UHGV virus genome: UHGV-0308383
Reading direction: 5' to 3' (one strand)
Length of the DNA stretch: 11,770 nt
Origin: a virus
The position numbers and the translations under genes are program-made. Positions 354 through 11,770 of the stretch are shown in pieces. Every line of letters starts with the position of its first letter. The stretch's first letter is position 1. The notes below the pieces were generated by a model. That model was not told where the DNA came from and ran no database searches. It worked only from the letters and a program-made list of their open reading frames with translations.

Positions 354-364
354 AATATCTTAAG

Positions 365-388
365 AGCCTCCTTAATTGGGGGCTTTTT
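365..388 (+). terminator. Rho-independent terminator-like hairpin (AGCCTCC / GGGGGCT, one G-U pair, 6-nt loop) followed by TTTTT
   Basis: Stem 365..371 pairs with 378..384, T-run 384..388, directly after the cassette stop codon. Confidence 0.5.
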
Positions 389-510
389 ATTGAGTAAAAT
401 TTACGAAATTTATATTTTTTATAAAATTTATCGGTTGTTCCAACCTCTGGGTCACCATGATATGTGAACAAAATATCTAACCTTCTTAACAGCCTTCTTA
501 ATCTTACTCT

Positions 511-537
511 CTATATAGTTATATAGTACTATATAGT
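511..537. promoter_or_regulatory. Cluster of AT-rich palindromes: CTATATAG (511..518) and the perfect 14-bp palindrome ATATAGTACTATAT (521..534); candidate protein-binding site
   Basis: Exact dyad symmetry seen in sequence; lies in the intergenic region between the cassette and the 3' end of CDS 585..1004. Confidence 0.3.
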
Positions 538-584
538 ATCTTAGTAACTATCTAGTGGTCTTAATAGCCATCTGTATAGCCCTT

Positions 585-1004: not shown

Positions 1005-1017
1005 AGCTATCACACCA

Positions 1018-1482
1018 TTATCGTAAAACTTGGTAAGCTGGTACTGCAAACTTGTTGCTATTGTTCCTAATAAGGTCTTCTTCTGTTACTAAGAATGTAA
1101 TCCCACATAAGTGCGTATAGTGGCTGTCATACTCGAATATTTTAAGTAAGTATTTACCATCATGGTAGACAGACTCTACTACACCTTTTGCAACAATCTT
1201 TCCAGTCTTGAAGTCTTTAAGAGGGTATGTATTACCAACTTTAGGGACTGTTTTCACTTCAGGTTCTTTTAGCTTTTCGCCAGCTTCTACATCACCTAGC
1301 AAGTGAGAACTTTCAAACGCTACATATTGCATATAAGCTTCTGAGCATTCCCAGATAAAACAATGTACAAGAACCTTAGCAGCATGTCTTGAGCAATTCA
1401 ACTTATCACAAATTTCTGTGTACATCTCATCTTTAGTTGAGTTGTTAAGCATTGCTTTTTGAACTACTTCTTTAATTTTCAT
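1018..1482 (-). CDS. Hypothetical protein, 154 aa
   Basis: ATG at 1480..1482 preceded by GGAGAG; 11-nt overlap with the stop of the upstream gene. Confidence 0.7.
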   Translation of the reverse strand: MKIKEVVQKAMLNNSTKDEMYTEICDKLNCSRHAAKVLVHCFIWECSEAYMQYVAFESSHLLGDVEAGEKLKEPEVKTVPKVGNTYPLKDFKTGKIVAKGVVESVYHDGKYLLKIFEYDSHYTHLCGITFLVTEEDLIRNNSNKFAVPAYQVLR

Positions 1483-1900
1483 AAGCTCTCCGAATAACCC
1501 TATTAAGCATCTCTAAAGTCAGCTTTCCAGATTCTAAATGCGGCATAACAAGCTTTAAAGCTTTTTCAACATCATGCACAACAGCTATTATACCTTCTTC
1601 ATAGGCTTCTACAAGGATATCTTTTACGTTTTGTTGGTTATCTTTTTGTGGTATTGCTAGACGCATATTAAACTCATTTGCTTGAGGGTGGTCACTACCA
1701 CGCCAGTAACCATCTTTGTTAAAGCTGATGTAGTCACCGTGGTAAAAGTGTACACCATTAGCTTTAAACTTCTCCAGCACAAGGCATTGAATTGGGTATT
1801 CAGTATTCCACTCCCTGACTCCTATAACCTTCACTGTTGCGATGTACTCCTGTGTTTTTGCATCTATGATGTCAAGTTCTTGACCAGCTATGATTTGCAT
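1472..1900 (-). CDS. Hypothetical protein, 142 aa
   Basis: ATG at 1898..1900 with GAAGGTAG Shine-Dalgarno upstream. Confidence 0.7.
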   Translation of the reverse strand: MQIIAGQELDIIDAKTQEYIATVKVIGVREWNTEYPIQCLVLEKFKANGVHFYHGDYISFNKDGYWRGSDHPQANEFNMRLAIPQKDNQQNVKDILVEAYEEGIIAVVHDVEKALKLVMPHLESGKLTLEMLNRVIRRAYEN

Positions 1901-1953
1901 ATTCGCTACCTTCTAAGTTTCTACAAAGGGGCTATCAAGTAACCCCTAAGTTA

Positions 1954-2178
1954 TTACTCAGACTTTTCAGTCTTCTTATCAGATTTCTTACTAGTCTTCT
2001 TCTCAGCCTTCTGCTCAGGTTCTTTCTCAGGAATTGCCTTGATAACCATATCAAGAAGCTCTGATAAGTCACTCTTCAGTAAAGTAACAGGCTGCTCATT
2101 GTAGAAGTTTTTGTCAAGATAAACTTTGAACTCTTCTATAGAAGGAAATCCAAAAATTGGTACAGGTGTCTTAATCAT
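1954..2178 (-). CDS. Hypothetical small protein, 74 aa, with a Lys/Glu-rich C-terminal tail
   Basis: ATG start; C-terminus EPEQKAEKKTSKKSDKKTEKSE. Confidence 0.6.
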   Translation of the reverse strand: MIKTPVPIFGFPSIEEFKVYLDKNFYNEQPVTLLKSDLSELLDMVIKAIPEKEPEQKAEKKTSKKSDKKTEKSE

Positions 2179-2254
2179 TACTTAGTCTCTCCATAGGCAT
2201 CTTTCAAGATTGCCTTGTTAATCATTTCAGCGATTGCAAAACGAACACATACAG

Positions 2255-2788
2255 CTATAATTGTAGGTTGCATTCTTTACTTACCTCTTCAAGTTTAACC
2301 TCAGAGTCCTTAAGTCGTTTCTTATGAACTCTGAATCTCATTAGTGAGATGATGATACCAGCTAAAGGAACAGCATACAAGTACCAAACATCATAGACCT
2401 TTGCGGTAATCTGTGTAATGGTTAAGTCTTGAGCTATGTAGCTGATTGATGATACGGCTATCAATGTTGCTAAGAAGAAAACCAGTATCATAGCAATATT
2501 CAGACAACCTCTTGCATGGTATTCATGCTTAATGCACTTATTCTTTTCGTCAACAACTCTGTTGTAGTCGTTTGTAAAGTCTCTGTAGAAAGCTTTCAAG
2601 TACTCTTGATTGTAACCTTCAAAACAACCTGTACCGTACCAATAATCACCACCAAAATGTGCTATGATACCAGTATCTCCATTTGGTTTAGTTACTCTTA
2701 AAGAGACATGATGACCAGTTTTCTGGTAGTCTATCTTGTATCTTTCTTCAAAAATCATTTTCCAACCCCTCTCAATCGTTTGTTCCAT
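2255..2788 (-). CDS. Membrane protein, 177 aa: ~100-aa N-terminal soluble domain, two predicted transmembrane helices, charged C-terminal tail
   Basis: Hydrophobic stretches IAMILVFFLATLIAVSSISYIA and WYLYAVPLAGIIISLM followed by RFRVHKKRLKDSEVKLEE. Confidence 0.65.
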   Translation of the reverse strand: MEQTIERGWKMIFEERYKIDYQKTGHHVSLRVTKPNGDTGIIAHFGGDYWYGTGCFEGYNQEYLKAFYRDFTNDYNRVVDEKNKCIKHEYHARGCLNIAMILVFFLATLIAVSSISYIAQDLTITQITAKVYDVWYLYAVPLAGIIISLMRFRVHKKRLKDSEVKLEEVSKECNLQL

Positions 2789-2973
2789 TCAAGGTCAACA
2801 AGTCTTTGCAGGACTTTACCTCTAGGTGTTACACCTTTTAAATCTGCATCATAACAATGGTAAAAATCACCTTCAGCATGTCTACCATAGCATTTCCTGA
2901 TATTCTGGCTTCTACGATATTGTTCTAATAGAGACAGCTTGTAGTAATCTTCAACTGTAGTTAACTTTTTCAT
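2755..2973 (-). CDS. Hypothetical protein, 72 aa; 3' end overlaps the start of 2255..2788 by 34 nt
   Basis: ATG at 2971..2973 with GGTGAG upstream; basic, Cys/His-containing product. Confidence 0.45.
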   Translation of the reverse strand: MKKLTTVEDYYKLSLLEQYRRSQNIRKCYGRHAEGDFYHCYDADLKGVTPRGKVLQRLVDLEWNKRLRGVGK

Positions 2974-3065
2974 TCTCTCACCATAGCGTTTCTGAACTGA
3001 CGTTGTGTTTCTCTTGTAACTTCATTTGGAGTGAGACCAGCTTTAGCCATATCTACTCTCCAGAA

Positions 3066-3097
3066 ACTAAAAAGGGAACTACCTCTCGATAGCTCCC
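3066..3097 (-). terminator. Rho-independent terminator-like hairpin on the minus strand (GGGAGC/GTTCCC stem, 12-nt loop) followed by UUUUU
   Basis: Stem 3074..3079 / 3092..3097; minus-strand T-run is the complement of 3069..3073; lies just after the stop of CDS 3123..3704. Confidence 0.45.
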
Positions 3098-3122
3098 ATC
3101 ATAGTTAATCTTGTATACTTGG

Positions 3123-3704
3123 TCAAGAGTATTTTTTAGGCAGTAATGCACTGCGCTTGTTACTCTCTTCACTCAACAGTGCGATAAAGTCATCACCTTT
3201 ACCTTTCCACGGACTGAATGAAGGGATATGTTCACGAATGGCTTCAATCACTGTCTTCAGTGCTGTATTTTTCATCCACCAATCAGAATCTGCTGATGCT
3301 ACCACGTAGTATGCACCTTCATCTGTCAGGATTGGTTCTGATATACATGGTGAAATCAAAGTAGTGATGATTGAACCATTATTCATATAATATGTGCGCT
3401 TCATAACCTTTTCAAGAAGCTTGTGTAGGTCACCAAACAGTGTTACAAGTTCTTTGTGGTCAATGTCTTTTTCAAGATTTGCACGATACTTCAACAAAGC
3501 TGCATCAACTTCTCTGTCATTGAACTTGAAGTATTGGACTTCATCAACAAGACAAACGCTGATGTTGTTAACGTTCATGGTCAACTTGCAAACTTTTGCA
3601 GGGGAATTGATGCTTGGTTGAAAAAGTGCTATACACCCTTCAATGTTTCCAAAATGTTGAACTAGTGTTACTTGTGGAGTGATAAGCTGTTGCTCTTCGG
3701 ACAT
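3123..3704 (-). CDS. Hypothetical protein, 193 aa
   Basis: ATG at 3702..3704; stop of the upstream gene overlaps the start by 1 nt. Confidence 0.75.
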   Translation of the reverse strand: MSEEQQLITPQVTLVQHFGNIEGCIALFQPSINSPAKVCKLTMNVNNISVCLVDEVQYFKFNDREVDAALLKYRANLEKDIDHKELVTLFGDLHKLLEKVMKRTYYMNNGSIITTLISPCISEPILTDEGAYYVVASADSDWWMKNTALKTVIEAIREHIPSFSPWKGKGDDFIALLSEESNKRSALLPKKYS

Positions 3705-4048
3705 TACAGTTTCCTCATTAAATACTTTTTAAGTTGTGTGTTAGGTTTCTCAAAAACTTCTATAGAAGATATCTTGACAGATTCACCTCGCATACCAGTA
3801 TGTTTGAATATGTAATACTCTAACATCCCTATGTACTTTGCTGGTAAGTCATGCTTGACATACACCGTTACAGAATCTTCAAATTCGACAACCTTCGTAC
3901 CATCTTTGTAGTTAAACTCTTTAGGATGTTTGTAGTTATCTATGTCGTACATTAAAAAGAGTCTTTTACGTTGTAAGTCAAGCTTATTTGTTAAAGACTC
4001 TTTGATATCTGAGAAGTTTTTGTAAACTGTGACATGGAGCTTACTCAT
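3704..4048 (-). CDS. Hypothetical protein, 114 aa
   Basis: ATG at 4046..4048; start-stop overlaps with both neighbours. Confidence 0.7.
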   Translation of the reverse strand: MSKLHVTVYKNFSDIKESLTNKLDLQRKRLFLMYDIDNYKHPKEFNYKDGTKVVEFEDSVTVYVKHDLPAKYIGMLEYYIFKHTGMRGESVKISSIEVFEKPNTQLKKYLMRKL

Positions 4049-4334
4049 CGTTAAACTCTCTGACGAAGAAATAGTTGACTTTATTATTACCTACCATAAG
4101 GTCAAAGCAGGTATTCTCAAAAGGTTTGTTGTAGGCATCGTATGAAACATATGGGTCAGCTACTTGCTTAGTGCTTAACTTCTTACTTGATGGATTTAAG
4201 AGGCCACCATACAGATTCTTGATAGCCTCTTCTACAACAGACCAGATGATTTCGTCAGTAATTTCTTCGTACAGGTCAAGTTCACGCTCTAGTGAGAAGT
4301 CACAAATAGGGAAAATAACCTGTACTTTACTCAT
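4041..4334 (-). CDS. Hypothetical protein, 97 aa
   Basis: ATG at 4332..4334; overlapping start-stop arrangement. Confidence 0.7.
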   Translation of the reverse strand: MSKVQVIFPICDFSLERELDLYEEITDEIIWSVVEEAIKNLYGGLLNPSSKKLSTKQVADPYVSYDAYNKPFENTCFDLMVGNNKVNYFFVREFNDE

Positions 4335-4729
4335 TAACGGATAACCTGTGTGACTTGAATTGCTTCAGTTACTGATAAATCACCTACTTTCTCTTCTTTG
4401 ATAAAGGTGAAGGTGAGTTCAACAGGTTCTTGCTCTTCTTGCTCAACTTGAATACCATTAAGCTCATCAAAGATTGATTGAGTTGTCCAGTCTTCTCCAC
4501 CATCTGGATAGTGGATTGCATAAAGAGGAAACTCTAAATTATACCAAGCAAAAACAGGGCAACCATCTGCATCATCTCGACATCTGTGGAGATATGTGTT
4601 TGTACCTTCAAAATGCAAATGAAGATTACCATTCTTCTCAAATAGAAGAGCATCTTGCAGGTCTAATTCTTCATTTTCACTGTAACGACTGACATCAACT
4701 TTAACGTGGATATGACTGCTATTATTCAT
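4334..4729 (-). CDS. Hypothetical acidic protein, 131 aa
   Basis: ATG at 4727..4729; 1-nt stop/start overlap with the downstream gene. Confidence 0.7.
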   Translation of the reverse strand: MNNSSHIHVKVDVSRYSENEELDLQDALLFEKNGNLHLHFEGTNTYLHRCRDDADGCPVFAWYNLEFPLYAIHYPDGGEDWTTQSIFDELNGIQVEQEEQEPVELTFTFIKEEKVGDLSVTEAIQVTQVIR

Positions 4730-5120
4730 AAAAACCTCTCTCTGCTTGTTCGATTTTTGCTCTTAAAACTTCACATCGTTCTATGTGATATCTGGCCTCA
4801 TGCTCATGTGTTGCCAAAGTCCTTTCAAGAACTGTTTTATAGTAACTCGCAAGCTGCTCTCTTGTCAAGGGGTGTTCTGAAATAATATCAAGTCCACTTT
4901 CACCAAGAGGGTTGAATTGTCCATGTTCATTGACATTGTAAGTCTCAAACTTGAACAGACCATTGTTCACAGACTCAATAGGTGACAGTTCAACAAGCTC
5001 TACAGTAAACCGTGTATACACCTTGTCACCTCTTGAAACCACATTGTTTCCGACAATGCGTACAAGCGAACCATTACGAGTGTACTTAAAAGTCCCAAAG
5101 TCACTAGCCCAAAGCTTCAT
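4722..5120 (-). CDS. Hypothetical protein, 132 aa
   Basis: ATG at 5118..5120 preceded by AAGGAGAAAACT, just downstream of the terminator at 5131..5161. Confidence 0.75.
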   Translation of the reverse strand: MKLWASDFGTFKYTRNGSLVRIVGNNVVSRGDKVYTRFTVELVELSPIESVNNGLFKFETYNVNEHGQFNPLGESGLDIISEHPLTREQLASYYKTVLERTLATHEHEARYHIERCEVLRAKIEQAERGFYE

Positions 5121-5130
5121 AGTTTTCTCC

Positions 5131-5161
5131 TTAGAAAATAAAAAAGGCTCCCGAAGGAGCC
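5131..5161 (-). terminator. Rho-independent terminator on the minus strand: GGCUCC-UUCG-GGAGCC hairpin followed by UUUUUUAUUUU
   Basis: Perfect 6-bp GC-rich stem (5146..5151 / 5156..5161) with a UUCG tetraloop; U-run is the complement of 5131..5145; directly 3' of the endolysin stop. Confidence 0.8.
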
Positions 5162-5171
5162 TATGAAGATA

Positions 5172-5636
5172 TTACTTTGGATATACACTGTCAAGATAAA
5201 TGTTAGCTTCCATTCTACGTCTATTTTTCAGGCCGTTTGAAGTGACCTTCTCACCTTTGACTGTAATCTTGTTCCACCACTGCATAGCTTCTGCACAACC
5301 TACCTTATTACCAGCATTGTGGCGCTTAATAAATGTAGAATCCTGCATAGCTGTGATACCAATGTTGTATGTTTCACTTACAAGTGCATCGAACTCATTC
5401 TGAGAGGTTGGAACCTTGATAGCTTTGTTCACTGCTGCAACAAACTTTTCAACATCTGCGAGAAGATACTGTTCAGCTTGTCCAGCCGTGATTTTCATAC
5501 CCATCTTAACAGGTTTTCCGTCAATACGGATTGTACCATACCCGATTGTTGGGATTCCGGCAGAGTCTTTGTAAGCCTCTAACTTCAGACCTTCAAAGAA
5601 CTTAATGGCTTCTAAGCCTTTTCTTGAGAGTTGCAT
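5172..5636 (-). CDS. Endolysin: phage lysozyme (glycoside hydrolase family 24, P22 gp19 / lambda R / T4 e type), 154 aa, no signal or SAR segment
   Basis: Motifs FEGLKLEAYKDSAGIPTIGYGT (catalytic Glu/Asp/Thr region) and GLKNRRRMEANIY are typical of this lysozyme family (recognised by eye); strong GGGGAGG Shine-Dalgarno; ATG overlaps the upstream stop (TAATG). Confidence 0.9.
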   Translation of the reverse strand: MQLSRKGLEAIKFFEGLKLEAYKDSAGIPTIGYGTIRIDGKPVKMGMKITAGQAEQYLLADVEKFVAAVNKAIKVPTSQNEFDALVSETYNIGITAMQDSTFIKRHNAGNKVGCAEAMQWWNKITVKGEKVTSNGLKNRRRMEANIYLDSVYPK

Positions 5637-6769
5637 TATGCCTCCCCTGTTGGGTTAACTGTAACTGTTGCCGCATTAGATGTTACAGAGCCACCTGCAC
5701 CAGTCACTACGCAAGTGTAGCTTCCTGCATCAGCAGCAGTTGCACCTTCTTTGGTGTAAGTTGCAGTCATTGCGTCTGGGATGTTTTCCTCACCCTTCTT
5801 CCACTGGTAACCTGTCGCACCTGTTGCCACAACGTTGAGTGTCAATGTCTCACCTTCAGTGATTTCTTGATTAGTTGGCTGTTGAGTGATTACAGGAAGT
5901 GCTTTAACGGTTACTGTTGCAGGGCTAGAAGTAACGGAACCACCTGCACCTGTTACAACGCAAGTATATGAACCTGCATCTGCTGGTAGTGCGCCAGACT
6001 TGCTATAAGTAGCGTTTGTAGCTGAAGGAATATTAGAGCCATCTTTCTTCCACTGATAGCCCGTTGCACCTGTGGCAGTCACTTCCAAGCTAATGTTGCC
6101 ACCTTCATTGATGGTCTGGCTAGAAGGTTGTTTGGTAATCACTGGTAAAGCGTTCACAGTAACTGTTGCTTCATCTGAGGTAACGCTTGTTCCAGCCTCT
6201 CCAGATACAACACAAGTGTATGAGCCAGCGTCAGAAGGTACTACAGATTGTTTTGTGTAAGTTGCAGAAGTGGCACTGGGGATATCCTCACCATCCTTCT
6301 TCCACTGATATCCAGTGGCGTTAGTTGCTAGAACACTTAGAGTAAGTGTGCCACCCTCATTGACTGTTTGTCCTGTTGGTTGCTGAGTAATTGCTGGTGG
6401 CTTAATAGCATCCTTCAGCTTAGCATTCAACATTGAGAATGGCTTCACTCTTGCCAGCCATTCACAGTAAATTGTGTCAACATCTTTACCGTTGATAATT
6501 GCATACTGTAAATCCATGAAGAAATCAGCAGTTCTCATCTGCGCGCCGACGCTGTAAAGGAGTTCATCACTAAATGGAACTTTGTAGTCTGGTTTGTAAT
6601 CAAACTTCTCAACTTCTGCAATATCAGCTTCAGGCCAATATGAACTATAGGTAAGTGGTAAAATAGCTTCTTGATATGTTCTAAAATCATATCTCTTACC
6701 AGCCTTTACATTTGCAATGAAGCCCTTTACAAATTCTTTGAAGTCTGGGTAAGTCTTTGCTTTAATCAT
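5636..6769 (-). CDS. Protein with three tandem Ig-like (I-set-like) domains at the C-terminus and an N-terminal domain paralogous to CDS 6766..7137; candidate virion-decoration or adhesion protein
   Basis: Three ~80-aa repeats with the pattern QP..Q...EG..L.L.V.ATGATGYQWKKDG..IP.AT.ATY.K.....ADAGSYTCVV.G.GGSVTS..ATVTV; N-terminal 130 aa aligns with 6766..7137 (MDLQYAI vs MDIQYVI, YWPEAD vs KWPEED). Confidence 0.85.
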   Translation of the reverse strand: MIKAKTYPDFKEFVKGFIANVKAGKRYDFRTYQEAILPLTYSSYWPEADIAEVEKFDYKPDYKVPFSDELLYSVGAQMRTADFFMDLQYAIINGKDVDTIYCEWLARVKPFSMLNAKLKDAIKPPAITQQPTGQTVNEGGTLTLSVLATNATGYQWKKDGEDIPSATSATYTKQSVVPSDAGSYTCVVSGEAGTSVTSDEATVTVNALPVITKQPSSQTINEGGNISLEVTATGATGYQWKKDGSNIPSATNATYSKSGALPADAGSYTCVVTGAGGSVTSSPATVTVKALPVITQQPTNQEITEGETLTLNVVATGATGYQWKKGEENIPDAMTATYTKEGATAADAGSYTCVVTGAGGSVTSNAATVTVNPTGEA

Positions 6770-7137
6770 TTCTTTTTAGCCTCTAAACGTGCGTTTAATC
6801 TAAAATAGCCTTTATGTTGTGGAGACACATCACTAACAACAATACCTTCAACTTTATAGCCCTTACCAATTACATACTGGATATCCATAAGAAACGTACC
6901 AAGCCCAACAATGTGGAACATCGGGTATAGTAACTTATCTGAATCTGGGAGTTTAATTTCTGGGTTATAGGCGGGTTGTTCGGCAGTTGGTGTAATATCC
7001 TCTTCAGGCCATTTACTCATTCTCCATGTTAAAGGTGATGCAATAACATCGTTGAGATTATATCTTTCACCATTCTCCACGGAGTGGATATAGGATTGTA
7101 GGAAGCAGTAAAAGTCTTTTGCACTCTTAGCCTTCAT
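6766..7137 (-). CDS. Hypothetical protein, 123 aa; paralog of the N-terminal domain of CDS 5636..6769
   Basis: ATG at 7135..7137 with AAGGAT upstream; ATGA overlap with the downstream start; clear paralogy seen by eye. Confidence 0.8.
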   Translation of the reverse strand: MKAKSAKDFYCFLQSYIHSVENGERYNLNDVIASPLTWRMSKWPEEDITPTAEQPAYNPEIKLPDSDKLLYPMFHIVGLGTFLMDIQYVIGKGYKVEGIVVSDVSPQHKGYFRLNARLEAKKK

Positions 7138-7147
7138 TAAATATCCT

Positions 7148-7176
7148 TATAAATAGAGAAAGGGGCATCAGCCCCT
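7148..7176 (-). terminator. Terminator-like hairpin on the minus strand (AGGGGC-UGAU-GCCCCU) followed by a U-rich tract
   Basis: Stem 7161..7166 / 7171..7176; minus-strand downstream sequence TTCTCTATTTAT; lies between CDS 7185..7775 and 6766..7137. Confidence 0.5.
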
Positions 7177-7184
7177 GTTTATAC

Positions 7185-7775
7185 TTAAGCTTTGGTCTTA
7201 AGTAGGTTCTTAAGTTTTTTGAGATTCATGCTCTCGTCAAACTTAAAACCAAATCCATTGACATAATCAATGAACTCGGATTTCTTACTCAGTGATAGTG
7301 CGTAACTCATATCGAAGTTATTACTTGTTTCTGCATCTGGACTAGAGTTCACATCAAATGAAATTTCTGTAGGCTCTTGCTTGCTACTTCTCATATTATC
7401 AATCAATAGACAGGTATAGTTTGCTGGATAGAAGTTAACACTACCATCAACATATCCATACTTGTTATTGTGAATAAGGCTGGAAAATACCTTAAGAAAT
7501 GTTTCTGATTCGTGGCATACAAGTTTGAATTGACTGCATTCTCCAAGAGCCACTAAAGAGTAAGGACTTTCACTATCAATGTCGTAGTTTGGGTTTGATG
7601 TTGTAACCGTCACACGCATCAGGTTATTTGCAATAGTCTTCTGCTTAAAAGAATTTTGAACATAGTGAAGACCTCTATCACACTGATTGACTAGCTCTTT
7701 AAGAAGGTCATTTGCATATGGTGAATTAATTGATACAGAGCCATCACTATTGTAATTAAAACTTACTGTTAACAT
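7185..7775 (-). CDS. Hypothetical protein, 196 aa
   Basis: ATG at 7773..7775 preceded by AGGAGA. Confidence 0.75.
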   Translation of the reverse strand: MLTVSFNYNSDGSVSINSPYANDLLKELVNQCDRGLHYVQNSFKQKTIANNLMRVTVTTSNPNYDIDSESPYSLVALGECSQFKLVCHESETFLKVFSSLIHNNKYGYVDGSVNFYPANYTCLLIDNMRSSKQEPTEISFDVNSSPDAETSNNFDMSYALSLSKKSEFIDYVNGFGFKFDESMNLKKLKNLLKTKA

Positions 7776-8002
7776 TTTTCAGTTCTCCTGCGATTTATAA
7801 TTTTGCTGCAATAGAGAAACGAAGTAAACTCACTGGAAGAAACCATTAAGTGTTGTTCACTAGATTGAGCCATTGCCCTGAAATACATTCCAGTCAAAGC
7901 ATCATAGTGACTATTCTTTCCAATTGAGGTTATATAGCCATGACTCTTTGCAGTTTGATATAAATCTATAATATCTGCGATTTCTAATTGGGAACTACAC
8001 AT
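7769..8002 (-). CDS. Hypothetical protein, 77 aa
   Basis: ATG at 8000..8002 preceded by AAGAGGA; overlaps neighbours by 7 and 19 nt. Confidence 0.55.
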   Translation of the reverse strand: MCSSQLEIADIIDLYQTAKSHGYITSIGKNSHYDALTGMYFRAMAQSSEQHLMVSSSEFTSFLYCSKIINRRRTEKC

Positions 8003-8145
8003 AGATAATCCTCTTGTCTTCTGTAATTTTGAAAGAACAGGTACAGACCAATTTCAGAGGATGAATAGTAGATTAACTCTACCCTTTTTGATTCCTTACA
8101 GTGATTGGTATTCTTACCTTTCTTCGGTTTATTTGATTTTCTCAT
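7984..8145 (-). CDS. Small basic protein, 53 aa (MRKSNKPKKGKNTNH...); first gene of the leftward operon. The track's 7984..8166 ORF begins at a TTG; the ATG at 8143..8145 has a much better ribosome-binding site
   Basis: AAGGAG lies 5 nt upstream of the ATG at 8143..8145. Confidence 0.55.
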   Translation of the reverse strand: MRKSNKPKKGKNTNHCKESKRVELIYYSSSEIGLYLFFQNYRRQEDYLCVVPN

Positions 8146-8190
8146 TAAGTCTCCTTTGTAGAACAAGGCAGACCTACAGCTTTAACTAAG

Positions 8191-8219: not shown

Positions 8220-8244
8220 GAACTATTGCAAGTTAAAAAAGTTG

Positions 8245-8281
8245 TTGACAAAGTACTTGACAAGGTGTAGGCTTATAAATA
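8245..8281 (+). promoter_or_regulatory. Promoter-like region upstream of CDS 8395..8766: tandem TTGACA boxes (8245..8250, 8257..8262) after an A-rich tract, and TATAAATA (8274..8281), which matches the phage T4 late-promoter consensus
   Basis: Motifs seen in sequence; spacing from either TTGACA to a good -10 hexamer is non-canonical, so the promoter class is uncertain. Confidence 0.35.
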
Positions 8282-8394
8282 CTTAGAAGATAACTTAAAA
8301 GGTTCCTCTAAAAAGGCTATTTAAACAGATATCTTTCTGGATATCTATCTTTTATCTTAAAAGCCTTTTAAGAGGTCTTATAAGAGGCATACCA

Positions 8395-8766
8395 ATGAAA
8401 AACAGAACAAACAAAGGCCAGTTTAAAAAAGGCCAGTCTGGTAACCCATCTGGAAGACCGAAAGGTTCACGTAACAAAAGCTCACTCGTAAAAGCTCAAC
8501 TGACCATTGATAATTCTGCTGAGTTCGCTGCAAAGCTGTTTGAGGCGATTGTTACAAGGGATGCGGCTAAGCTTGCAGAGTTCGGGTTAAACACAGATGA
8601 CGTAACCATCAAGAGTATGATTGAGGTCGGTAAAACTATCTTTACTCACTCAGCAGGTGAGATGAAAGCACTTGCAGCAGACACTAAGAAGACTCCTGAT
8701 AATGGTGGTCAACAACAGACAGATAACAAACCAACGTTCTCTGCTGTAGCGACTCTCAAAAAATAA
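8395..8766 (+). CDS. Small basic protein, 123 aa, with the N-terminal motif KGQFKKGQSGNPSGRPKGSRN (resembles the GNPxGRPKG motif of the phage DUF5681 family, from memory)
   Basis: ATG at 8395 with AAGAGG upstream; basic N-terminus, Gln-rich acidic C-terminus. Confidence 0.75.
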   Translation: MKNRTNKGQFKKGQSGNPSGRPKGSRNKSSLVKAQLTIDNSAEFAAKLFEAIVTRDAAKLAEFGLNTDDVTIKSMIEVGKTIFTHSAGEMKALAADTKKTPDNGGQQQTDNKPTFSAVATLKK

Positions 8767-8778
8767 TTTTAAAAGGTG

Positions 8779-8814
8779 TTGACAGACTCTACAAAGTTGC
8801 TCTAAAGTCTGTCA
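8779..8814 (+). promoter_or_regulatory. Candidate sigma70 promoter (A-rich UP, TTGACA 8779..8784, 18-bp spacer, TAAAGT 8803..8808) embedded in a perfect 9-bp inverted repeat (TGACAGACT 8780..8788 / AGTCTGTCA 8806..8814)
   Basis: Seen in sequence; located between the two plus-strand genes. Confidence 0.45.
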
Positions 8815-8847
8815 CATCAAACAACAAATGAGAGAAGAGAGTAAAAT

Positions 8848-10263
8848 ATGAGCGAGTTATTTAAACATGCGCACCTTCATGCAGGTCGAACTGAAAATGG
8901 TGCTGTAAACCATACTTCATCAATGTCTGCTCTGGTAGACTTCTACAAAGCCGCTGGCTCAAGCCGTAGCAATGTAGAAATCTTACCAGACCTGTTCTAC
9001 AAAGCTTTGCGTGAGGATGTTGATGTTGCAGTTCGTATTTTACTGCATATGCGAGATGTACGAGAAGGTATGGGTGAGCGTAAAGCTTTCAGAACTGTTT
9101 TACTTCAAGCAATCGAAGACAAAGTTTTAGAACCTACACAGGTACTTCGTATTATGGATAAGGTTGCAGAACTTGGTCGTTTTGATGACTTCAAAATCTT
9201 CGTAGGCACTCGTTTTGAGACAGATGCCTTCAAACATTTAGAAGCAGCGTTACTAGACCCTGCAACAGCAGGTTTAGCAGCCAAGTGGCTACCACGAGTA
9301 AAACCACGCCACAAACAGTTTGTAAAACGTTTCTGTAAGTTTGCAAACTTAAGCGAGAAAGAGTACCGAACACTGCTATCTGCACTGTCTGATACGGTTG
9401 AGCAAAAAATCTCTGCTAATGAGTTTGGTAAGATTGACTACAGCAAGATTCCTTCACTCGCTGCTGCACGTTACCAAAAACTCTTTAACCGTAAAGATGG
9501 AGAACGCTACAAAGCTTACATCGAGTCATTATCAAAAGGTGAGGCTAAGATTAACGCTGGTGCTATTTACCCATACGATGTGATTAAATCTATTAAGTAT
9601 GGTAATGCAGATGTTGCTAATGAACAGTGGAAAGCACTTCCAAACTGGATGGCAGAAGGTGAGAACATCTTGTGTATGACTGATGTCTCAAGCTCAATGT
9701 CTTGGGTGAATTTCGGTTCAATCACGGCTCTTGATATTGGTGTATCTCTTGCCCTGTATGTAGCAGAACGCAACACAGGCTGCTTTAAGAATGAGTTAAT
9801 GGTTTATTCAACAAACCCTCACTTCATCGAACTGAGTGGTGATTTACGAAACCGTCATCGTCAGGTAATGCGTTATACTGAATATGGTTCAACTAACTTG
9901 CAAGCAGCTTTTGACCGCATTCTTGAGACAGGTAAGAGAAACAACTTGACTCAGAAAGATATGCCAAGTAAGCTTATCATCTTCTCTGATATGGAGTTCA
10001 ATCAGGTTGACGGTGCAAATGGTTGTACAAACTTTGAAGCAATTCGTAGTAAGTACAAAAAAGCTGGATACGAAATGCCACAACTGGTATTCTGGTACTT
10101 AGCAAACCGTAATGGTACTTGCGAAGTGTCTGTTAAGGATAACGGTGTAGCAATGGTATCAGGGTTCTCTCCAGCCACTTTAAAAGCTCTGCTTGGTGGT
10201 GAGAAGTTTGACCCAACCAGCGTAATGCTCAAAGCAGTAATGATTGACCGTTACATCTGGTAA
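8848..10263 (+). CDS. DUF2828-like protein, 471 aa: N-terminal helical region with a TENGA...LVDFY motif and a C-terminal von Willebrand factor A-like domain with a MIDAS-type motif
   Basis: MIDAS-like D-x-S-x-S (ILCMTDVSSSMS) and a later hydrophobic strand plus SD (LIIFSDMEF); N-terminal TENGAVNHTSSMSALVDFY...LRED...ILLHMRDVREGMGERKAF resembles the DUF2828 family (recalled, not searched); AGAAGAGAG upstream. Confidence 0.85.
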   Translation: MSELFKHAHLHAGRTENGAVNHTSSMSALVDFYKAAGSSRSNVEILPDLFYKALREDVDVAVRILLHMRDVREGMGERKAFRTVLLQAIEDKVLEPTQVLRIMDKVAELGRFDDFKIFVGTRFETDAFKHLEAALLDPATAGLAAKWLPRVKPRHKQFVKRFCKFANLSEKEYRTLLSALSDTVEQKISANEFGKIDYSKIPSLAAARYQKLFNRKDGERYKAYIESLSKGEAKINAGAIYPYDVIKSIKYGNADVANEQWKALPNWMAEGENILCMTDVSSSMSWVNFGSITALDIGVSLALYVAERNTGCFKNELMVYSTNPHFIELSGDLRNRHRQVMRYTEYGSTNLQAAFDRILETGKRNNLTQKDMPSKLIIFSDMEFNQVDGANGCTNFEAIRSKYKKAGYEMPQLVFWYLANRNGTCEVSVKDNGVAMVSGFSPATLKALLGGEKFDPTSVMLKAVMIDRYIW

Positions 10264-10276
10264 AAAGTTTTAAAAA

Positions 10277-10310
10277 GGGTATTGACAATATGTTTAATAC
10301 CCTTTAATAT
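10277..10310 (+). promoter_or_regulatory. Near-consensus sigma70 promoter: A-rich UP, TTGACA (10282..10287), 17-bp spacer, TAATAT (10305..10310); the -35 region lies inside a 7-bp-stem hairpin (GGGTATT 10277..10283 / AATACCC 10296..10302) that may also terminate CDS 8848..10263
   Basis: Motifs and spacing seen in sequence. Confidence 0.55.
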
Positions 10311-10372
10311 GTTCTACATAGAAACGAAATGAGAGCTTTTCTAAGATACTGAAAAATATTTTAAAAAAGTTC

Positions 10373-10405
10373 TTGACAACCACTAAAAAATAATGTTAAA
10401 GTGGT
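10373..10405 (+). promoter_or_regulatory. Candidate sigma70 promoter for the tRNA cluster: A-rich UP, TTGACA (10373..10378), 18-bp spacer, TAAAGT (10397..10402); overlaps a hairpin (ACCACT 10379..10384 / AGTGGT 10400..10405)
   Basis: Same TTGACA-N18-TAAAGT architecture as the element at 8779; about 25 nt upstream of the first tRNA. Confidence 0.45.
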
Positions 10406-10427
10406 TACATAGAGTTTGAAAAGTTTA

Positions 10428-10505
10428 TCTCTGTTTAGCTCAGCTTGGTAGAGCGTTCCGTTTGGGGCGGTAAGGCCGGAGGTTCAAGTCCTCCAACAGA
10501 GACCA
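10428..10505 (+). tRNA. tRNA-Pro (anticodon UGG), CCA encoded
   Basis: Manual cloverleaf: 7-bp acceptor stem, D-arm GCTC/GAGC with GG, anticodon loop TTTGGGG (anticodon 10463..10465), T-arm GGAGG-TTCAAGT-CCTCC; one T-T mismatch in the anticodon stem. Confidence 0.8.
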
Positions 10506-10512
10506 AATTAAT

Positions 10513-10590
10513 GTTCCAGTAGACAAAATGGTAAAGTCACCACTCTTTCAAAGTGGATATCTGAGGGTTCAAATCCCTTCTGGAACGCCA
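10513..10590 (+). tRNA. tRNA-Glu (anticodon UUC), CCA encoded, discriminator G
   Basis: Acceptor GTTCCAG/CTGGAAC, anticodon arm CCACT-CTTTCAA-AGTGG, T-loop TTCAAAT. Confidence 0.75.
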
Positions 10591-10597
10591 GTTTTGA

Positions 10598-10670
10598 CAG
10601 AAGACCAATTACAGCAAACTTAATCTTATTCATCTGAAGGTAAATCGGACAAAGAAGAGATTTGGTCTGG
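10598..10670 (+). repeat. Inter-tRNA repeat module I: CAGAAGACCAA-TTACAGCAA...TTGGTCTGG with a 7-bp terminal stem (AGACCAA 10602..10608 / TTGGTCT 10662..10668)
   Basis: Shares 5' and 3' motifs and terminal complementarity with modules II-IV. Confidence 0.6.
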
Positions 10671-10681
10671 TCATTAAGAAT

Positions 10682-10758
10682 TGCGGGTATAGAGAAAGGG
10701 CGTCTCACATGTCTCATTAGCATGGTATCGGCAGGTTCGACTCCTGCACCCGCCTCCA
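10682..10758 (+). tRNA. tRNA with anticodon CAU (Met or lysidine-dependent Ile2), CCA encoded; noncanonical acceptor (T1-C72 mismatch or 6-bp stem) and U at position 37
   Basis: D-arm GAGA-AAGGGCG-TCTC, anticodon arm CATGT-CTCATTA-GCATG (anticodon 10715..10717), T-arm GCAGG-TTCGACT-CCTGC, then ACCCGCC-T-CCA. Confidence 0.55.
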
Positions 10759-10764
10759 ATTTTG

Positions 10765-10824
10765 CAGAAGACCGTATTCAGCAACAAAATACTTTTTGCG
10801 GATAAAAGAAAAAACACGGTCTGG
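10765..10824 (+). repeat. Inter-tRNA repeat module II: CAGAAGACCGT-ATTCAGCAA...ACGGTCTGG with a 7-bp terminal stem (AGACCGT 10769..10775 / ACGGTCT 10816..10822)
   Basis: Same architecture as modules I, III and IV. Confidence 0.6.
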
Positions 10825-10835
10825 CAATGTATTAA

Positions 10836-10912
10836 GGTTAGGAAGCACATAAGGTATGTGCGGTCGCCTGTTAAGCGAATGGCACAGGGTTCGAATCCCT
10901 GACTAACCGCCA
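10836..10912 (+). tRNA. tRNA-Asn (anticodon GUU), CCA encoded
   Basis: Acceptor GGTTAGG/ACTAACC (one G-A mismatch), D-arm GCAC/GTGC, anticodon loop CTGTTAA, T-arm CAGGG-TTCGAAT-CCCTG, discriminator G. Confidence 0.7.
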
Positions 10913-10920
10913 AATTAAAT

Positions 10921-11008
10921 GTGTCGTTATCCCGTAGATGGTAGCGGTGGGGACTGTAAATCTCTTGTCATTGAGACTCGGTAGGTTCGACTCCTACACG
11001 GCACACCA
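10921..11008 (+). tRNA. tRNA-Tyr (anticodon GUA), class II with a long variable arm, CCA encoded
   Basis: 85 nt plus CCA; acceptor GTGTCGT/ACGGCAC (one G-U pair), anticodon arm GGGGA-CTGTAAA-TCTCT, variable-arm hairpin GTC/GAC, T-arm GTAGG-TTCGACT-CCTAC. Confidence 0.75.
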
Positions 11009-11013
11009 ATAAA

Positions 11014-11091
11014 GGTTATGTAGTTTAATCTGGTTAAAATACTCCCCTGTCACGGGAGATGATGAGGGTTCAAATCCCTTCGTAACCGCCA
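11014..11091 (+). tRNA. tRNA-Asp (anticodon GUC), CCA encoded, discriminator G
   Basis: Acceptor GGTTATG/CGTAACC (one G-U pair), anticodon arm CTCCC-CTGTCAC-GGGAG, T-arm GAGGG-TTCAAAT-CCCTT. Confidence 0.75.
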
Positions 11092-11179
11092 AATTATAAT
11101 AAGTATTTCAAAATGATGTTTTGAGAGGGCTATTTAGCCCCTCCCTTAAAGAGTTCTTACGAGTATTCTTTAAAGGAGC

Positions 11180-11255
11180 GGAAGACCAAATTCAGCAAAT
11201 ATGTATGATATTTTCAAGCCAATTTAATTTTGAAAAAATTTAAAACTTGGTCTGG
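11180..11255 (+). repeat. Inter-tRNA repeat module III: GGAAGACCAA-ATTCAGCAA...TTGGTCTGG with a 7-bp terminal stem (AGACCAA 11183..11189 / TTGGTCT 11247..11253)
   Basis: Same architecture as modules I, II and IV. Confidence 0.6.
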
Positions 11256-11268
11256 CTCAACAAATTTA

Positions 11269-11401
11269 CAGAAGACCGTTTACAGCAAAAACTTAAACAA
11301 TCTATTTCTCCGGTAAAGAAAAGGCGAAGGTTCGATTCCTTCACTCGGCAGATGTCGAGTTGGTGTAATGGTAGCACTTAAGATGATAAACAACGGTCTG
11401 G
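11269..11401 (+). repeat. Inter-tRNA repeat module IV (expanded, 133 nt): CAGAAGACCGTT-TACAGCAA...AACGGTCTGG with an 8-bp terminal stem, enclosing split tRNA-like fragments
   Basis: AGACCGTT 11273..11280 pairs with AACGGTCT 11392..11399; same end motifs as modules I-III. Confidence 0.6.
11326..11377 (+). pseudogene. Split, circularly permuted tRNA-like remnant: T-arm plus 3' acceptor strand (GAAGG-TTCGATT-CCTTC-ACTCGGC) sits immediately upstream of the complementary 5' acceptor strand plus D-arm (GTCGAGT-TG-GTGT-AATGGTA-GCAC)
   Basis: ACTCGGC (11343..11349) is complementary to GTCGAGT (11354..11360) with one G-U pair; no intact anticodon arm found by eye. Confidence 0.4.
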
Positions 11402-11420
11402 TAATTATCTTTGTAGATAA
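11402..11420. repeat. 19-bp direct repeat AATTATCTTTGTAGATAAG (second copy at 11648..11666); near-palindromic core TTATCT-TTGT-AGATAA
   Basis: Identical 19-mers seen at both positions. Confidence 0.7.
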
Positions 11421-11422
11421 GT

Positions 11423-11503
11423 TATTAAGCTTACCTGTGAGTATGCGACCACAAAGGGTGGATGGGTAAATTCTAGATTTAAACCCAAAAAGGCACATCG
11501 CTA
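11423..11503. repeat. Left arm of a perfect 81-bp inverted repeat (partner 11690..11770, truncated by the window end)
   Basis: Reverse complement of 11690..11770 equals 11423..11503; identity breaks at 11504 versus 11689. Confidence 0.85.
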
Positions 11504-11566: not shown

Positions 11567-11642
11567 TGGTAGAAGTGGAGGGATTCGAACCCATCGCCTG
11601 TCAGATTAAAAGTCTGCCGCATCACCATTCTGCTACACTTCC
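11567..11642 (-). tRNA. tRNA-like gene on the minus strand, anticodon UUU (Lys-like), CCA encoded; noncanonical T-stem (3 G-C pairs flanked by mismatches) and G1-U72
   Basis: Minus strand reads GGAAGTG-TA-GCAGAATGGTGATGC-G-GCAGA-CTTTTAA-TCTGA-...GGG-TTCGAAT-CCC...CACTTCT-A-CCA; the anticodon loop matches the tRNA-Lys pattern. Confidence 0.5.
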
Positions 11643-11689: not shown

Positions 11690-11770
11690 TAGCGATGTGC
11701 CTTTTTGGGTTTAAATCTAGAATTTACCCATCCACCCTTTGTGGTCGCATACTCACAGGTAAGCTTAATA
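11690..11770. repeat. Right arm of the perfect 81-bp inverted repeat (partner 11423..11503); runs to the window end
   Basis: Exact reverse complement of the left arm. Confidence 0.85.

What the first reader, a model, noticed from the sequence alone, without database searches (positions are those of the whole stretch)
8779..10405. Sigma70-like promoters with UP elements whose core is embedded in perfect hairpins
Three plus-strand elements share an A-rich tract, then TTGACA, then a 17-18 bp spacer and a -10-like hexamer (TAAAGT, TAATAT, TAAAGT). In each the core overlaps a perfect inverted repeat of 6-9 bp (8780..8814, 10277..10302, 10379..10405), so the -35/-10 region can fold back on itself. 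This could combine termination or RNA-processing signals with promoters, or form operator sites for a phage regulator.
Basis: seen in the sequence. Interest (0 to 1): 0.45.

Follow-up and report, generated by a model that had tools for sequence, protein, structure and literature searches.

The report
Phage promoters overlapping RNA stem-loops
Three strong host-type promoters in a Felix O1-like phage each overlap a hairpin that can form only in RNA read through from the upstream gene, the same promoter-plus-stem-loop design already described in T4-like phages.

Summary
The window is a Felix O1-like phage (Felixounavirus, 97% identical to phage JH2). Three plus-strand elements share an A/T-rich UP-like tract, TTGACA, a 17-18 nt spacer, TAAAGT or TAATAT, and ACAT at the predicted start. 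P3 matches the UP-element consensus perfectly. Each overlaps an inverted repeat: 9 bp in P1 (13 bp when extended), 10-12 bp in P2 and 7 bp in P3. P1 and P2 are improbable by chance and conserved across three genera. P3 is marginal.

All stem variants keep pairing through G:U on the plus strand. P1 arm positions outside the hexamers vary far less than its loop. Every hairpin ends at or before the predicted start site, so only read-through RNA from upstream can form it.

The arms differ completely between elements, which rules out a shared operator. The closest known kind is the PeSL (promoter-early stem-loop) cassette of T4-like phages. P2's stem even has the A3G3-loop-C3T3 form of the nt-1/KVP40 type. 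The related JH2 genome carries many more such composites, including the unexplained 57-bp repeats reported for Felix O1.

Function as a terminator, attenuator or 3'-end stabiliser is inferred, not shown. Verdict: a new member of a known kind, of modest interest.

The parts
8395..8766 (+). Upstream gene (DUF5681 protein). Its stop codon lies in the A/T tract of P1.
   Evidence: ORF list; Pfam DUF5681, E 2e-14.
8755..8778 (+). P1 A/T-rich UP-like tract (AAAAAATAATTTTAAAAGGTG).
   Evidence: 2 mismatches to the UP consensus; conserved in relatives.
8779..8808 (+). P1 core promoter: TTGACA, 18-nt spacer, TAAAGT. Predicted start is A8814 or A8816 within ACAT.
   Evidence: The hexamers are conserved in 31 genomes (one variable column of 12) while 13 of 14 loop/spacer columns vary.
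8775..8818 (+). P1 stem-loop. Core arms 8780-8788 / 8806-8814, outer arms 8775-8779 / 8814-8818, 17-nt loop holding the spacer and the first bases of the -10.
   Evidence: dG -15.6 kcal/mol, z -3.5. 98.6% of cells paired across 11 distinct relatives, with pair types GU/AU/GC at one position.
8848..10263 (+). Gene flanked by P1 and P2 (DUF2828/DUF7788; annotated elsewhere as vWFA or 'RNA-binding protein').
   Evidence: Absent from Kolesnikvirus and Hafnia phage relatives.
10262..10281 (+). P2 A/T-rich tract. It begins one base before the end of the stop codon TAA (10261-10263).
   Evidence: (repeat family D6).
10282..10310 (+). P2 core promoter: TTGACA, 17-nt spacer, TAATAT. Predicted start about 10316-10318 (ACAT).
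   Evidence: Invariant hexamers in 31 genomes.
10274..10305 (+). P2 stem-loop of the A3G3...C3T3 type. Its left arm takes in the first four bases of the -35, and it ends at the first base of the -10. Followed by a weak U-rich tail.
   Evidence: 12 pairs, dG -13.5, z -3.4. 100% of cells paired; variants are UA->UG and GU->GC only.
10308..10320 (+). Small second hairpin TATGT-tct-ACATA over the 3' part of the P2 -10 and the predicted start. Invariant, so uninformative.
   Evidence: RNAalifold consensus.
10350..10371 (+). P3 UP element. It matches the consensus perfectly and in the expected register.
   Evidence: 0 mismatches at 10352-10368.
10373..10402 (+). P3 core promoter: TTGACA, 18-nt spacer, TAAAGT. 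Predicted start about 10407-10409, 20 nt before tRNA-Pro.
10378..10406 (+). P3 stem-loop. Arms 10378-10384 / 10400-10406 (7 bp), 15-nt loop. Weak.
   Evidence: dG -8.5, z -1.3. Variants AATCACT and AACTACT keep G:U pairing. The Mooglevirus clade breaks two pairs and gains AACACTA-aaaaa-TAGTGTT in the spacer.
10429..11091 (+). tRNA array (Pro, Glu, Met, Asn, Tyr, Asp) downstream of P2 and P3.
   Evidence: ARAGORN; Rfam.
5145..5194 (-). Composite of the same kind on the minus strand: TTGACA-N17-TATCTT followed 3 nt later by the terminator hairpin AGGCTCC-ttcg-GGAGCCT and a T-run.
3074..3126 (-). Second minus-strand composite: TTGACC (contains the upstream stop codon TGA)-N17-TATGAT, abutting a 10-bp terminator hairpin and T-run.

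Best explanation
P1, P2 and P3 are composite regulatory cassettes of a Felix O1-like phage. They work like the PeSL (promoter-early stem-loop) elements of T4-like phages.

The DNA part is a strong promoter for host sigma70 RNA polymerase. It has a UP element for the alpha subunit C-terminal domains, a consensus -35, a 17-18 nt spacer, a TAnnnT -10 and an ACAT start region. P1 drives the DUF2828 gene. P2 and P3 drive the tRNA array in tandem.

A stem-loop is superimposed on each promoter. Its 3' arm ends at or before the start site, so the promoter's own transcript never contains the whole hairpin. Only RNA initiated upstream and reading through can fold it. In that RNA the hairpin marks the 3' boundary of the upstream unit. 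It could do this by terminating or attenuating transcription, which is most plausible for P2 because of its U-rich tail. It could also act as a barrier to 3' exonucleases or as a processing site, which is more plausible for P1 because it has no U-tract. Either way, neighbouring transcription units are insulated within about 60 nt of intergenic DNA.

Shown here: the sequence anatomy, its improbability by chance, conservation of the pairing, and recurrence of the design in the genome and in other genera.
Inferred: promoter activity, the position of the start sites, and what the hairpin does to RNA.
For: - Promoter hexamers are enriched: 6 matches against 0.8 expected.
- P3 matches the UP consensus perfectly.
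- Hexamers are conserved across Felixounavirus, Suspvirus and Mooglevirus relatives (0-1 variable columns of 12) while the spacers diverge. P1's spacer changes from 18 to 17 nt.
- The repeats are improbable: P 0.015 for P1 and 0.003 for P2; fold z -3.5 and -3.4.
- Pairing is kept in 98.6% and 100% of cells.
- All 7 transition polymorphisms at Watson-Crick pairs are G:U-compatible on the plus strand (binomial p about 0.008).
- Plus-strand fold energy is more uniform than minus-strand energy across variants.
- P1 arm columns outside the hexamers vary in 5 of 18, against 13 of 14 for the loop (Fisher p 3e-4).
- The Kolesnikvirus counterpart of P1 has the same geometry with partly different arms, ACAGATAC/GTATCTGT.
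- In JH2, 8 of 24 promoter-like windows fold with z < -2, against 6.7% of control windows (p 1e-4).
- At least 6 near-identical TTTACA-GGGGCTTA...TAAGCCCC cassettes lie in the JH2 ORFan region.
- The published PeSL description matches: AT-rich tract holding the stop codon, sigma70 consensus, stem-loop in any of five positions, G-T pairs, A3-4G3-loop-C3T3-4 stems.
Against: - No pair shows a change on both sides, so formal covariation tests are uninformative.
- Part of each arm is a promoter hexamer and would be conserved anyway.
- P3's repeat is within chance (P 0.14, z -1.3) and is not kept in register in Mooglevirus.
- P1 and P3 have no U-tract and have long loops of 15-17 nt, so they are poor intrinsic terminators.
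- In Felixounavirus proper, P1 folds slightly better on the minus strand.
- Sense strands fold better than antisense in 60% of random windows, so part of the strand bias is background.
- The literature searches found no transcript-end data for this phage group.
Confidence: 0.6

Rival explanations
1. The palindromes are DNA operators. A dimeric phage or host regulator binds the two half-sites that straddle the -35 and the -10/start region and switches the promoters off.
For: The repeats overlap the polymerase contact regions, which is where repressors usually act. How this phage shuts off early transcription is unknown.
Against: - The arm sequences of P1, P2 and P3 are unrelated, and other promoters of the genome carry still other arms.
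- The position of the repeat relative to the hexamers differs between P2 and P1/P3.
- Half-site spacing is long and variable, with 12-17 nt between arms.
- Variants are strand-asymmetric (G:T on the plus strand only), which a duplex-DNA reader would not favour.
Confidence: 0.05
2. Together with the upstream A-tract, the hairpins are intrinsic terminators for the minus strand. On that strand the stem is followed by a U-run, and they would stop antisense transcription entering from the right.
For: On the minus strand the P1 and P2 stems are followed by T-rich runs, the complement of the UP tract. In Felixounavirus proper, P1 folds to -17.2 on the minus strand against -14.3 on the plus strand.
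Against: - All genes and tRNAs to the right are on the plus strand, so no minus-strand unit needs terminating.
- Every G:U variant becomes a C-A mismatch on the minus strand.
- Minus-strand energy drops to -5 in one P2 variant and to about -11 for P1 in the diverged relatives L019, L020 and L022, while plus-strand energy holds.
- The A-tract matches the UP consensus in the correct register.
Confidence: 0.08
3. Chance, or a by-product of promoter sequence. TTGACA and an AT-rich spacer easily give short repeats with no function of their own.
For: P3's 7-bp repeat has P = 0.14 and z -1.3. No double-sided compensatory change was found. Many promoter-like sites in JH2 have only 4-6 bp repeats.
Against: - P1 and P2 have P 0.015 and 0.003.
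- The arms outside the hexamers are conserved while the loops diverge.
- Hairpin enrichment among promoter-like windows of the genome has p 1e-4.
- Orthologues in other genera have the same geometry with different arms.
Confidence: 0.12
4. The hairpins act in DNA, not RNA. Supercoiling extrudes a cruciform, or a hairpin forms in single-stranded DNA. This sequesters the -35 and the start site and leaves the -10 in a loop, coupling promoter activity to DNA topology.
For: The geometry recurs with unrelated arms: the left arm abuts the -35, the right arm abuts the -10/start and the -10 lies in the loop. The surrounding sequence is AT-rich. From general knowledge, phage N4 virion RNA polymerase uses supercoil-extruded promoter hairpins.
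Against: - Loops of 12-17 nt make cruciform extrusion very costly.
- Plus-strand G:T variants imply A-C mismatches in the partner hairpin.
- The Felix O1 genome paper found no phage-encoded RNA polymerase.
- The plus strand is the non-template strand, so a single-stranded form could not be transcribed.
Confidence: 0.04

Closest known systems
PeSL (promoter-early stem-loop) cassettes of T4-like phages RB49/phi1, T4/PST and KVP40/nt-1 (Arbiol et al. 2010, PMC2839356; Comeau et al. 2014, PMC4122927)
   Same: - The AT-rich tract upstream of the -35 holds the stop codon of the upstream gene.
- The promoter is near-consensus sigma70 with a ~17-nt spacer.
- A stem-loop with G-T pairs is superimposed on the promoter in variable positions.
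- P2's stem is A3G3-loop-C3T3, the nt-1/KVP40 consensus.
- P1 is followed by a Shine-Dalgarno sequence and an ATG.
- Related cassettes are repeated in the ORFan region of the same genome, and homology with relatives breaks at them.
   Different: - The host phage belongs to Ounavirinae (Felix O1-like), not Straboviridae.
- The stems of P1 and P3 are AT-rich with 15-17 nt loops rather than G-tract/C-tract stems.
- P2 and P3 lead into tRNA genes, not ORFans.
- The P1-P3 region is conserved in 252 of 253 close relatives, so it is not hyperplastic within the genus.
- Terminator and promoter activity and recombination mini-circles were shown for PeSLs. None of these was tested here.
Rho-independent (intrinsic) terminators
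   Same: A hairpin immediately 3' of a stop codon. P2 is flagged by the terminator scan and has a weak U-rich tail, UUUAAUAUGUUCU.
   Different: P1 and P3 lack a U-tract and have long loops and few G-C pairs. The phage's clear terminators, such as GGCTCC-ttcg-GGAGCC-TTTTT, look quite different.
UP-element promoters such as E. coli rrnB P1 and strong early promoters of phages T5 and T7 (UP consensus recalled from general knowledge, Estrem et al. 1998)
   Same: An A/T tract at about -38 to -59. P3 matches AAAWWTWTTTTNNAAAA exactly, and all three have a consensus -35.
   Different: The -10 hexamers are 4 of 6 (TAAAGT, TAATAT). Superimposed hairpins are not a feature of those promoters.
Phage T7 early-region RNase III processing hairpins (general knowledge)
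   Same: Intergenic hairpins in read-through early RNA that define and stabilise mRNA 3' ends. The ~20-bp, two-part cassettes of the JH2 ORFan region resemble them in size.
   Different: The P1-P3 stems (7-13 bp) are shorter than typical RNase III substrates. T7 sites do not overlap promoters.
Phage N4 early promoters (hairpin promoters for the virion RNA polymerase; general knowledge)
   Same: An inverted repeat lies at a promoter.
   Different: N4 hairpins have 5-7 bp stems and 3-nt loops, and a phage-encoded polymerase reads them on the template strand. Here the loops are 12-17 nt, the hexamers are sigma70 type, and the Felix O1 genome paper found no phage polymerase.

Membership tests
PeSL (promoter-early stem-loop) cassette | Sigma70-like -35 and -10 boxes about 17 nt apart | tested here: met
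   TTGACA-N17/18-TAAAGT or TAATAT at all three sites. Hexamers are conserved in 31 genomes.
PeSL (promoter-early stem-loop) cassette | [quoted passage not shown] | tested here: met
   The stops at 8764-8766 and 10261-10263 lie in the A/T tracts of P1 and P2. P3 has the tract but no upstream ORF.
PeSL (promoter-early stem-loop) cassette | A stable stem-loop superimposed on or adjoining the promoter, in one of five positions | tested here: met
   P1 and P3 run from the -35 edge to the -10/start. P2 runs from upstream of the -35 to the -10. dG is -15.6, -13.5 and -8.5. P3 is weak.
PeSL (promoter-early stem-loop) cassette | Stem of the G-tract/C-tract type (GN-loop-CN, or A3-4G3-loop-C3T3-4) | tested here: inconclusive
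   P2 is AAAGGG...CCCTTT, which fits. P1 and P3 are not of this type. The JH2 ORFan cassettes are GGGGC...GCCCC.
PeSL (promoter-early stem-loop) cassette | Shine-Dalgarno sequence and start codon of the downstream gene at the 3' end | tested here: inconclusive
   P1 is followed by GAGAGAAGAGAG and the ATG at 8848. P2 and P3 lead into tRNA-Pro, not an ORF.
PeSL (promoter-early stem-loop) cassette | Repeated in the genome and concentrated in hyperplastic ORFan regions, next to indels | tested here: inconclusive
   Met for related cassettes in the JH2 ORFan region. Only 30 of 254 relatives cover 80% or more of that region, and homology ends map to cassette-bearing intergenic regions. The P1-P3 region itself is conserved in 252 of 253 relatives. 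The P1-gene-P2 unit is missing only in other genera, and no recombinant junction was shown.
PeSL (promoter-early stem-loop) cassette | The stem-loop terminates or attenuates upstream transcription, and the promoter is strong in vivo | not testable with these tools
   This needs reporter assays or transcript-end mapping. The literature searches found no such data for Felix O1-like phages.
Intrinsic terminator | G+C-rich stem, short loop, U-tract directly after the stem | tested here: not met
   Only P2 passes a lenient scan, with 3 G-C pairs and an 8-nt loop. P1 and P3 have no U-tract.
Shared operator of one regulator | A common half-site sequence at fixed spacing in all regulated promoters | tested here: not met
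   The arms TGACAGACT, AAAGGGTATT and AACCACT are unrelated, and the gaps between them are 17, 12 and 15 nt.
UP element (alpha-CTD binding site) | Match to AAAWWTWTTTTNNAAAA ending about 3-4 nt upstream of the -35 | tested here: met
   P3 has 0 mismatches in the expected register and P1 has 2. P2 has only the proximal A-tract. The window holds 8 matches against 1.8 expected.
Any Rfam RNA family | Covariance-model match | tested here: not met
   Only tRNAs and chance-level matches appear in the window at E <= 1. Nothing lies at P1-P3.

The most novel reading that the evidence does not exclude
The recurring geometry may reflect a DNA-level switch. In at least ten promoters across three Ounavirinae genera, with unrelated arm sequences, the left arm abuts the -35, the right arm abuts the -10 and start site, and the -10 lies in the loop. 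A hairpin or cruciform extruded from supercoiled or transiently single-stranded phage DNA would sequester the -35 and the start site. Early promoter activity would then be tied to the topological state of the injected or replicating genome, rather than the hairpin acting only in read-through RNA.
Probability: 0.05. Interest if true: 0.7.

Novelty: new member of a known kind. Interest (0 to 1): 0.3.

Why it matters
The Felix O1 genome paper stated that it is not known how transcription gets past the phage's many terminators or how it is timed. It also listed 57-bp and 39-bp intergenic repeats without interpreting them.

Reading these and P1-P3 as promoter/stem-loop composites gives a concrete, testable map of transcription units. 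Each unit would end in the hairpin that also houses the next promoter.

It also extends the PeSL design beyond T4-like phages. That suggests the design is a general answer to the problem of packing insulated units into very short intergenic regions, and possibly a substrate for cassette shuffling.

In practical terms, P3 is a compact natural promoter with a perfect UP element and a perfect -35.

Tried and rejected
- An Rfam scan of the whole window at E <= 1 found only tRNAs and chance-level hits, with nothing at P1-P3.
- RNAalifold and pair counting on P1, P2 and P3 alignments found no double-sided compensatory change. The shuffle controls were uninformative because only one-sided changes occur.
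- The operator idea was rejected because the arms are unrelated.
- The minus-strand terminator idea was rejected on gene orientation and on the G:U direction.
- Strand bias of folding turned out to be partly background, since sense folds better in 60% of random windows. It is used only as weak support.
- Literature searches for transcript mapping or hairpin-promoter reports in Felix O1-like phages found nothing. Published promoter lists for Felix O1 and UAB_Phi87 do not mention hairpins.
- No close relative was found with the DUF2828 gene deleted by P1/P2 recombination; 252 of 253 keep it.
- The mini-ORFs starting ATGAGAG downstream of P1 and P2 were dismissed because the ATG is not conserved.
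- PDB and NCBIfam searches with the DUF2828 protein gave no hits, so the 'RNA-binding / Ro-like' label could not be checked.
Full report
**Identity and layout**

The window is a Felix O1-like myophage of the genus Felixounavirus. Region 8300-10800 is 97% identical to Escherichia phage JH2, and 252 of 253 matching phage records cover at least 80% of it.

- Minus-strand genes, including the endolysin and a tail protein, fill 1-8166.
- A divergent intergenic region follows.
- On the plus strand lie a DUF5681 gene (8395-8766), a DUF2828/DUF7788 gene (8848-10263) and a tRNA array starting with tRNA-Pro at 10429.

**The observation**

All three elements are as described.

| Element | -35 (TTGACA) | Spacer | -10 |
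|---|---|---|---|
| P1 | 8779-8784 | 18 nt | TAAAGT 8803-8808 |
| P2 | 10282-10287 | 17 nt | TAATAT 10305-10310 |
| P3 | 10373-10378 | 18 nt | TAAAGT 10397-10402 |

- They also share ACAT(A/C) 5 nt after the -10, the likely start region.
- TTGACA-N16-18-TANNNT occurs 6 times in the window against 0.8 expected; no shuffle of 200 reaches 6.
- The UP-element consensus (recalled from general knowledge) matches P3 with no mismatch and in the right register, and P1 with two mismatches.

The inverted repeats are real.

| Element | Left arm | Right arm | Length |
|---|---|---|---|
| P1 | 8780-8788 | 8806-8814 | 9 bp; 13 bp with one bulge when extended by 8775-8779 / 8814-8818 |
| P2 | 10274-10283 | 10296-10305 | 10 bp perfect; 12 bp with G:U |
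| P3 | 10378-10384 | 10400-10406 | 7 bp |

**Chance**

- In AT-rich 60-nt windows of the JH2 genome, a perfect repeat of at least 7, 9 or 10 bp (loop 3-30 nt) occurs with probability 0.14, 0.015 and 0.003.
- RNA folds give -15.6, -13.5 and -8.5 kcal/mol, with z-scores of -3.5, -3.4 and -1.3 against dinucleotide shuffles.
- P1 and P2 therefore stand on their own. P3 does not.

**Comparative evidence**

I compared 30 related genomes with the window: 27 viral contigs plus annotated Felixounavirus and Mooglevirus records.

- The hexamers are invariant or change towards consensus. P1's spacer shortens from 18 to 17 nt in diverged relatives.
- The loop and spacer sequence is almost completely replaced.
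- For P1, arm columns outside the hexamers vary in 5 of 18 cases. Loop columns vary in 13 of 14 (Fisher p 3e-4) and flanks in 22 of 31.
- Pairing is kept in 98.6% (P1) and 100% (P2) of cells.
- One P1 pair appears as G:U, A-U and G-C in different lineages.
- No pair changes on both sides, so classical covariation statistics say nothing.
- All seven kinds of transition at Watson-Crick pairs give G:U on the plus strand, never A-C. The expectation is one half each, so p is about 0.008.
- Plus-strand fold energies are steadier across variants than minus-strand ones.
- Sense strands fold better in 60% of random windows, so strand bias is only weak support.
- Together these results point to pairing in plus-strand RNA.

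In P3, the common variants AATCACT and AACTACT keep G:U pairs. The Mooglevirus clade breaks two pairs and gains a new 7-bp hairpin inside the spacer.

**Geometry**

In all three elements the 3' arm ends at or before the predicted start site. The promoter's own RNA therefore cannot form the hairpin. Only RNA started upstream can: from the DUF5681 promoter region for P1, from P1 for P2, and from P2 for P3.

**The same design elsewhere**

- In Kolesnikvirus phages the DUF5681 gene is followed by TTGACA-gatac...GTATCTGT. This is an 8-bp repeat in the same position as P1's, with partly different arms.
- A Hafnia phage has P2's left half (AAAAAGGGTATTGACAA) without the right arm. It has another hairpin with the -10 in its loop instead.
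- In JH2, 8 of 24 promoter-like windows fold with z < -2, against 6.7% of control windows (p 1e-4).
- One JH2 example is TTGACA-AAGGGGCT-ttga-AGCCCCTT-TAGAAT between rIIA and rIIB.
- Another is a 16-bp terminator hairpin that swallows a whole TTGACA-N18-TAGGCT promoter at JH2 18925.
- At least six near-identical cassettes, TTTACA-a-GGGGCTTA-N11-TAAGCCCC, lie in the JH2 ORFan region. They have P1's geometry: the left arm follows the -35 and the right arm begins at the end of the -10.
- These cassettes are the 57-bp direct repeats that the Felix O1 genome paper listed without interpretation. That paper did not list P1-P3 as promoters and said regulation was unknown.
- The window itself holds two more composites on the minus strand, at 5194-5145 and 3126-3074. 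In each, a consensus-like promoter abuts a canonical terminator so that the start would fall inside the stem.

**Comparison with known systems**

The closest match is the PeSL cassette of T4-like phages. It consists of:

- an AT-rich tract holding the upstream stop codon;
- a sigma70-type early promoter;
- a stem-loop with G-T pairs placed between, over, upstream or downstream of the boxes.

For PeSLs, terminator and promoter activity and a role in gene shuffling were demonstrated.

- P2's stem is the A3-4G3-loop-C3T3-4 form reported for nt-1/KVP40.
- The DUF2828 homologue of the KVP40-like phage ValKK3 is itself preceded by a promoter-hairpin composite.
- The JH2 ORFan region is hyperplastic. 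Only 30 of 254 relatives cover most of it, and homology ends fall at cassette-bearing intergenic regions.
- The P1-P3 region is stable within the genus. The P1-gene-P2 unit is absent only from other genera, and no junction proves recombination.

I therefore file P1-P3 as working like PeSLs and as probable members of the kind. The functional features and the shuffling feature remain untested.

**Rivals**

- A shared operator is excluded because the arms are unrelated.
- Minus-strand terminators are unlikely, given gene orientation and the direction of the G:U changes.
- Chance remains possible for P3 only.
- A DNA-level cruciform switch is not excluded. It is disfavoured by the 12-17 nt loops and by the strand asymmetry.

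**Verdict**

The elements are a new member of a known kind, in a phage subfamily where I found no published description of such cassettes. Interest is modest.

Noticed in passing
window 10594-10673, 10761-10827, 11175-11258, 11265-11404: Four spacers between tRNA genes share a bracket of the form NNNN-A-GAA-GACCnn ... nnGGTC-T-G-NNNN. Both parts of the closing stem covary between copies. The outer part reads TGAC/GTCA, TTGC/GCAA, GAGC/GCTC and TTAC/GTAA; the inner part reads CAA/TTG or CGT/ACG. The last copy encloses a T-arm-like GGTTCGATTCC. These could be degenerate tRNA-like or processed small RNAs, or a miniature repeat element. The copies are conserved in relatives.
   Followed up: partly
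window 11423-11503 and 11690-11770: A perfect 81-nt inverted repeat at the very end of the window brackets a minus-strand tRNA-Lys (11567-11642). In relatives the tRNA array continues on the plus strand. This looks like a fold-back assembly artefact at a contig end.
   Followed up: no
window 5145-5194 (-) and 3074-3126 (-): Consensus-like promoters (TTGACA-N17-TATCTT and TTGACC-N17-TATGAT, the latter holding the upstream stop codon) lie directly against canonical terminators. The predicted start falls inside the terminator stem. This is another form of promoter/terminator overlap.
   Followed up: partly
window 8236-8275 (+): The divergent intergenic region carries a double -35-like motif, TTGACA-aagtac-TTGACAAGGTGT, after an A-tract. 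The same TTGACA-N6-TTGACA arrangement is seen in the two other divergent or early regions of JH2 (JH2 35525 and 87277). TTGACAAGGTG also recurs at other JH2 promoters.
   Followed up: no
L034 (JH2) 889-980, 1690-1774, 2758-2849, 3363-3457, 3716-3804, 4186-4273: Near-identical ~90-nt intergenic cassettes lie in the early ORFan region. Each has TTTACA, a GGGGCTTA/TAAGCCCC stem around a TAAAGT-type -10, and an outer stem AAAGTACTTTA/TAAAGAGCTTT (about 20 bp in all, the size of an RNase III substrate). They correspond to the uninterpreted 57-bp repeats of the Felix O1 paper, and homology with relatives breaks at them.
   Followed up: partly
window 8848-10263; L037, L038, L039, L042: The DUF2828/DUF7788 gene (annotated 'RNA-binding protein' or vWFA) sits directly before the tRNA array. 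It is missing from Kolesnikvirus and a Hafnia phage, and it has a homologue in the KVP40-like Vibrio phage ValKK3. PDB and NCBIfam sequence searches gave no match, so the RNA-binding (Ro-like) label remains unverified.
   Followed up: partly
L037 3925-3997 and L038 3913-3983: In Kolesnikvirus, a tRNA-like gene that ARAGORN reports with a two-base anticodon lies between the P1-like and P3-like promoters, where Felixounavirus has the DUF2828 gene.
   Followed up: no
window 8827-8850 and 10329-10352: Seven-codon mini-ORFs starting ATGAGAG follow P1 and P2. The first overlaps the DUF2828 start codon (ATGA). The ATG is replaced by ACG or shifted in several relatives, so these are probably not translated units. 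The conserved part is GAGAG.
   Followed up: partly
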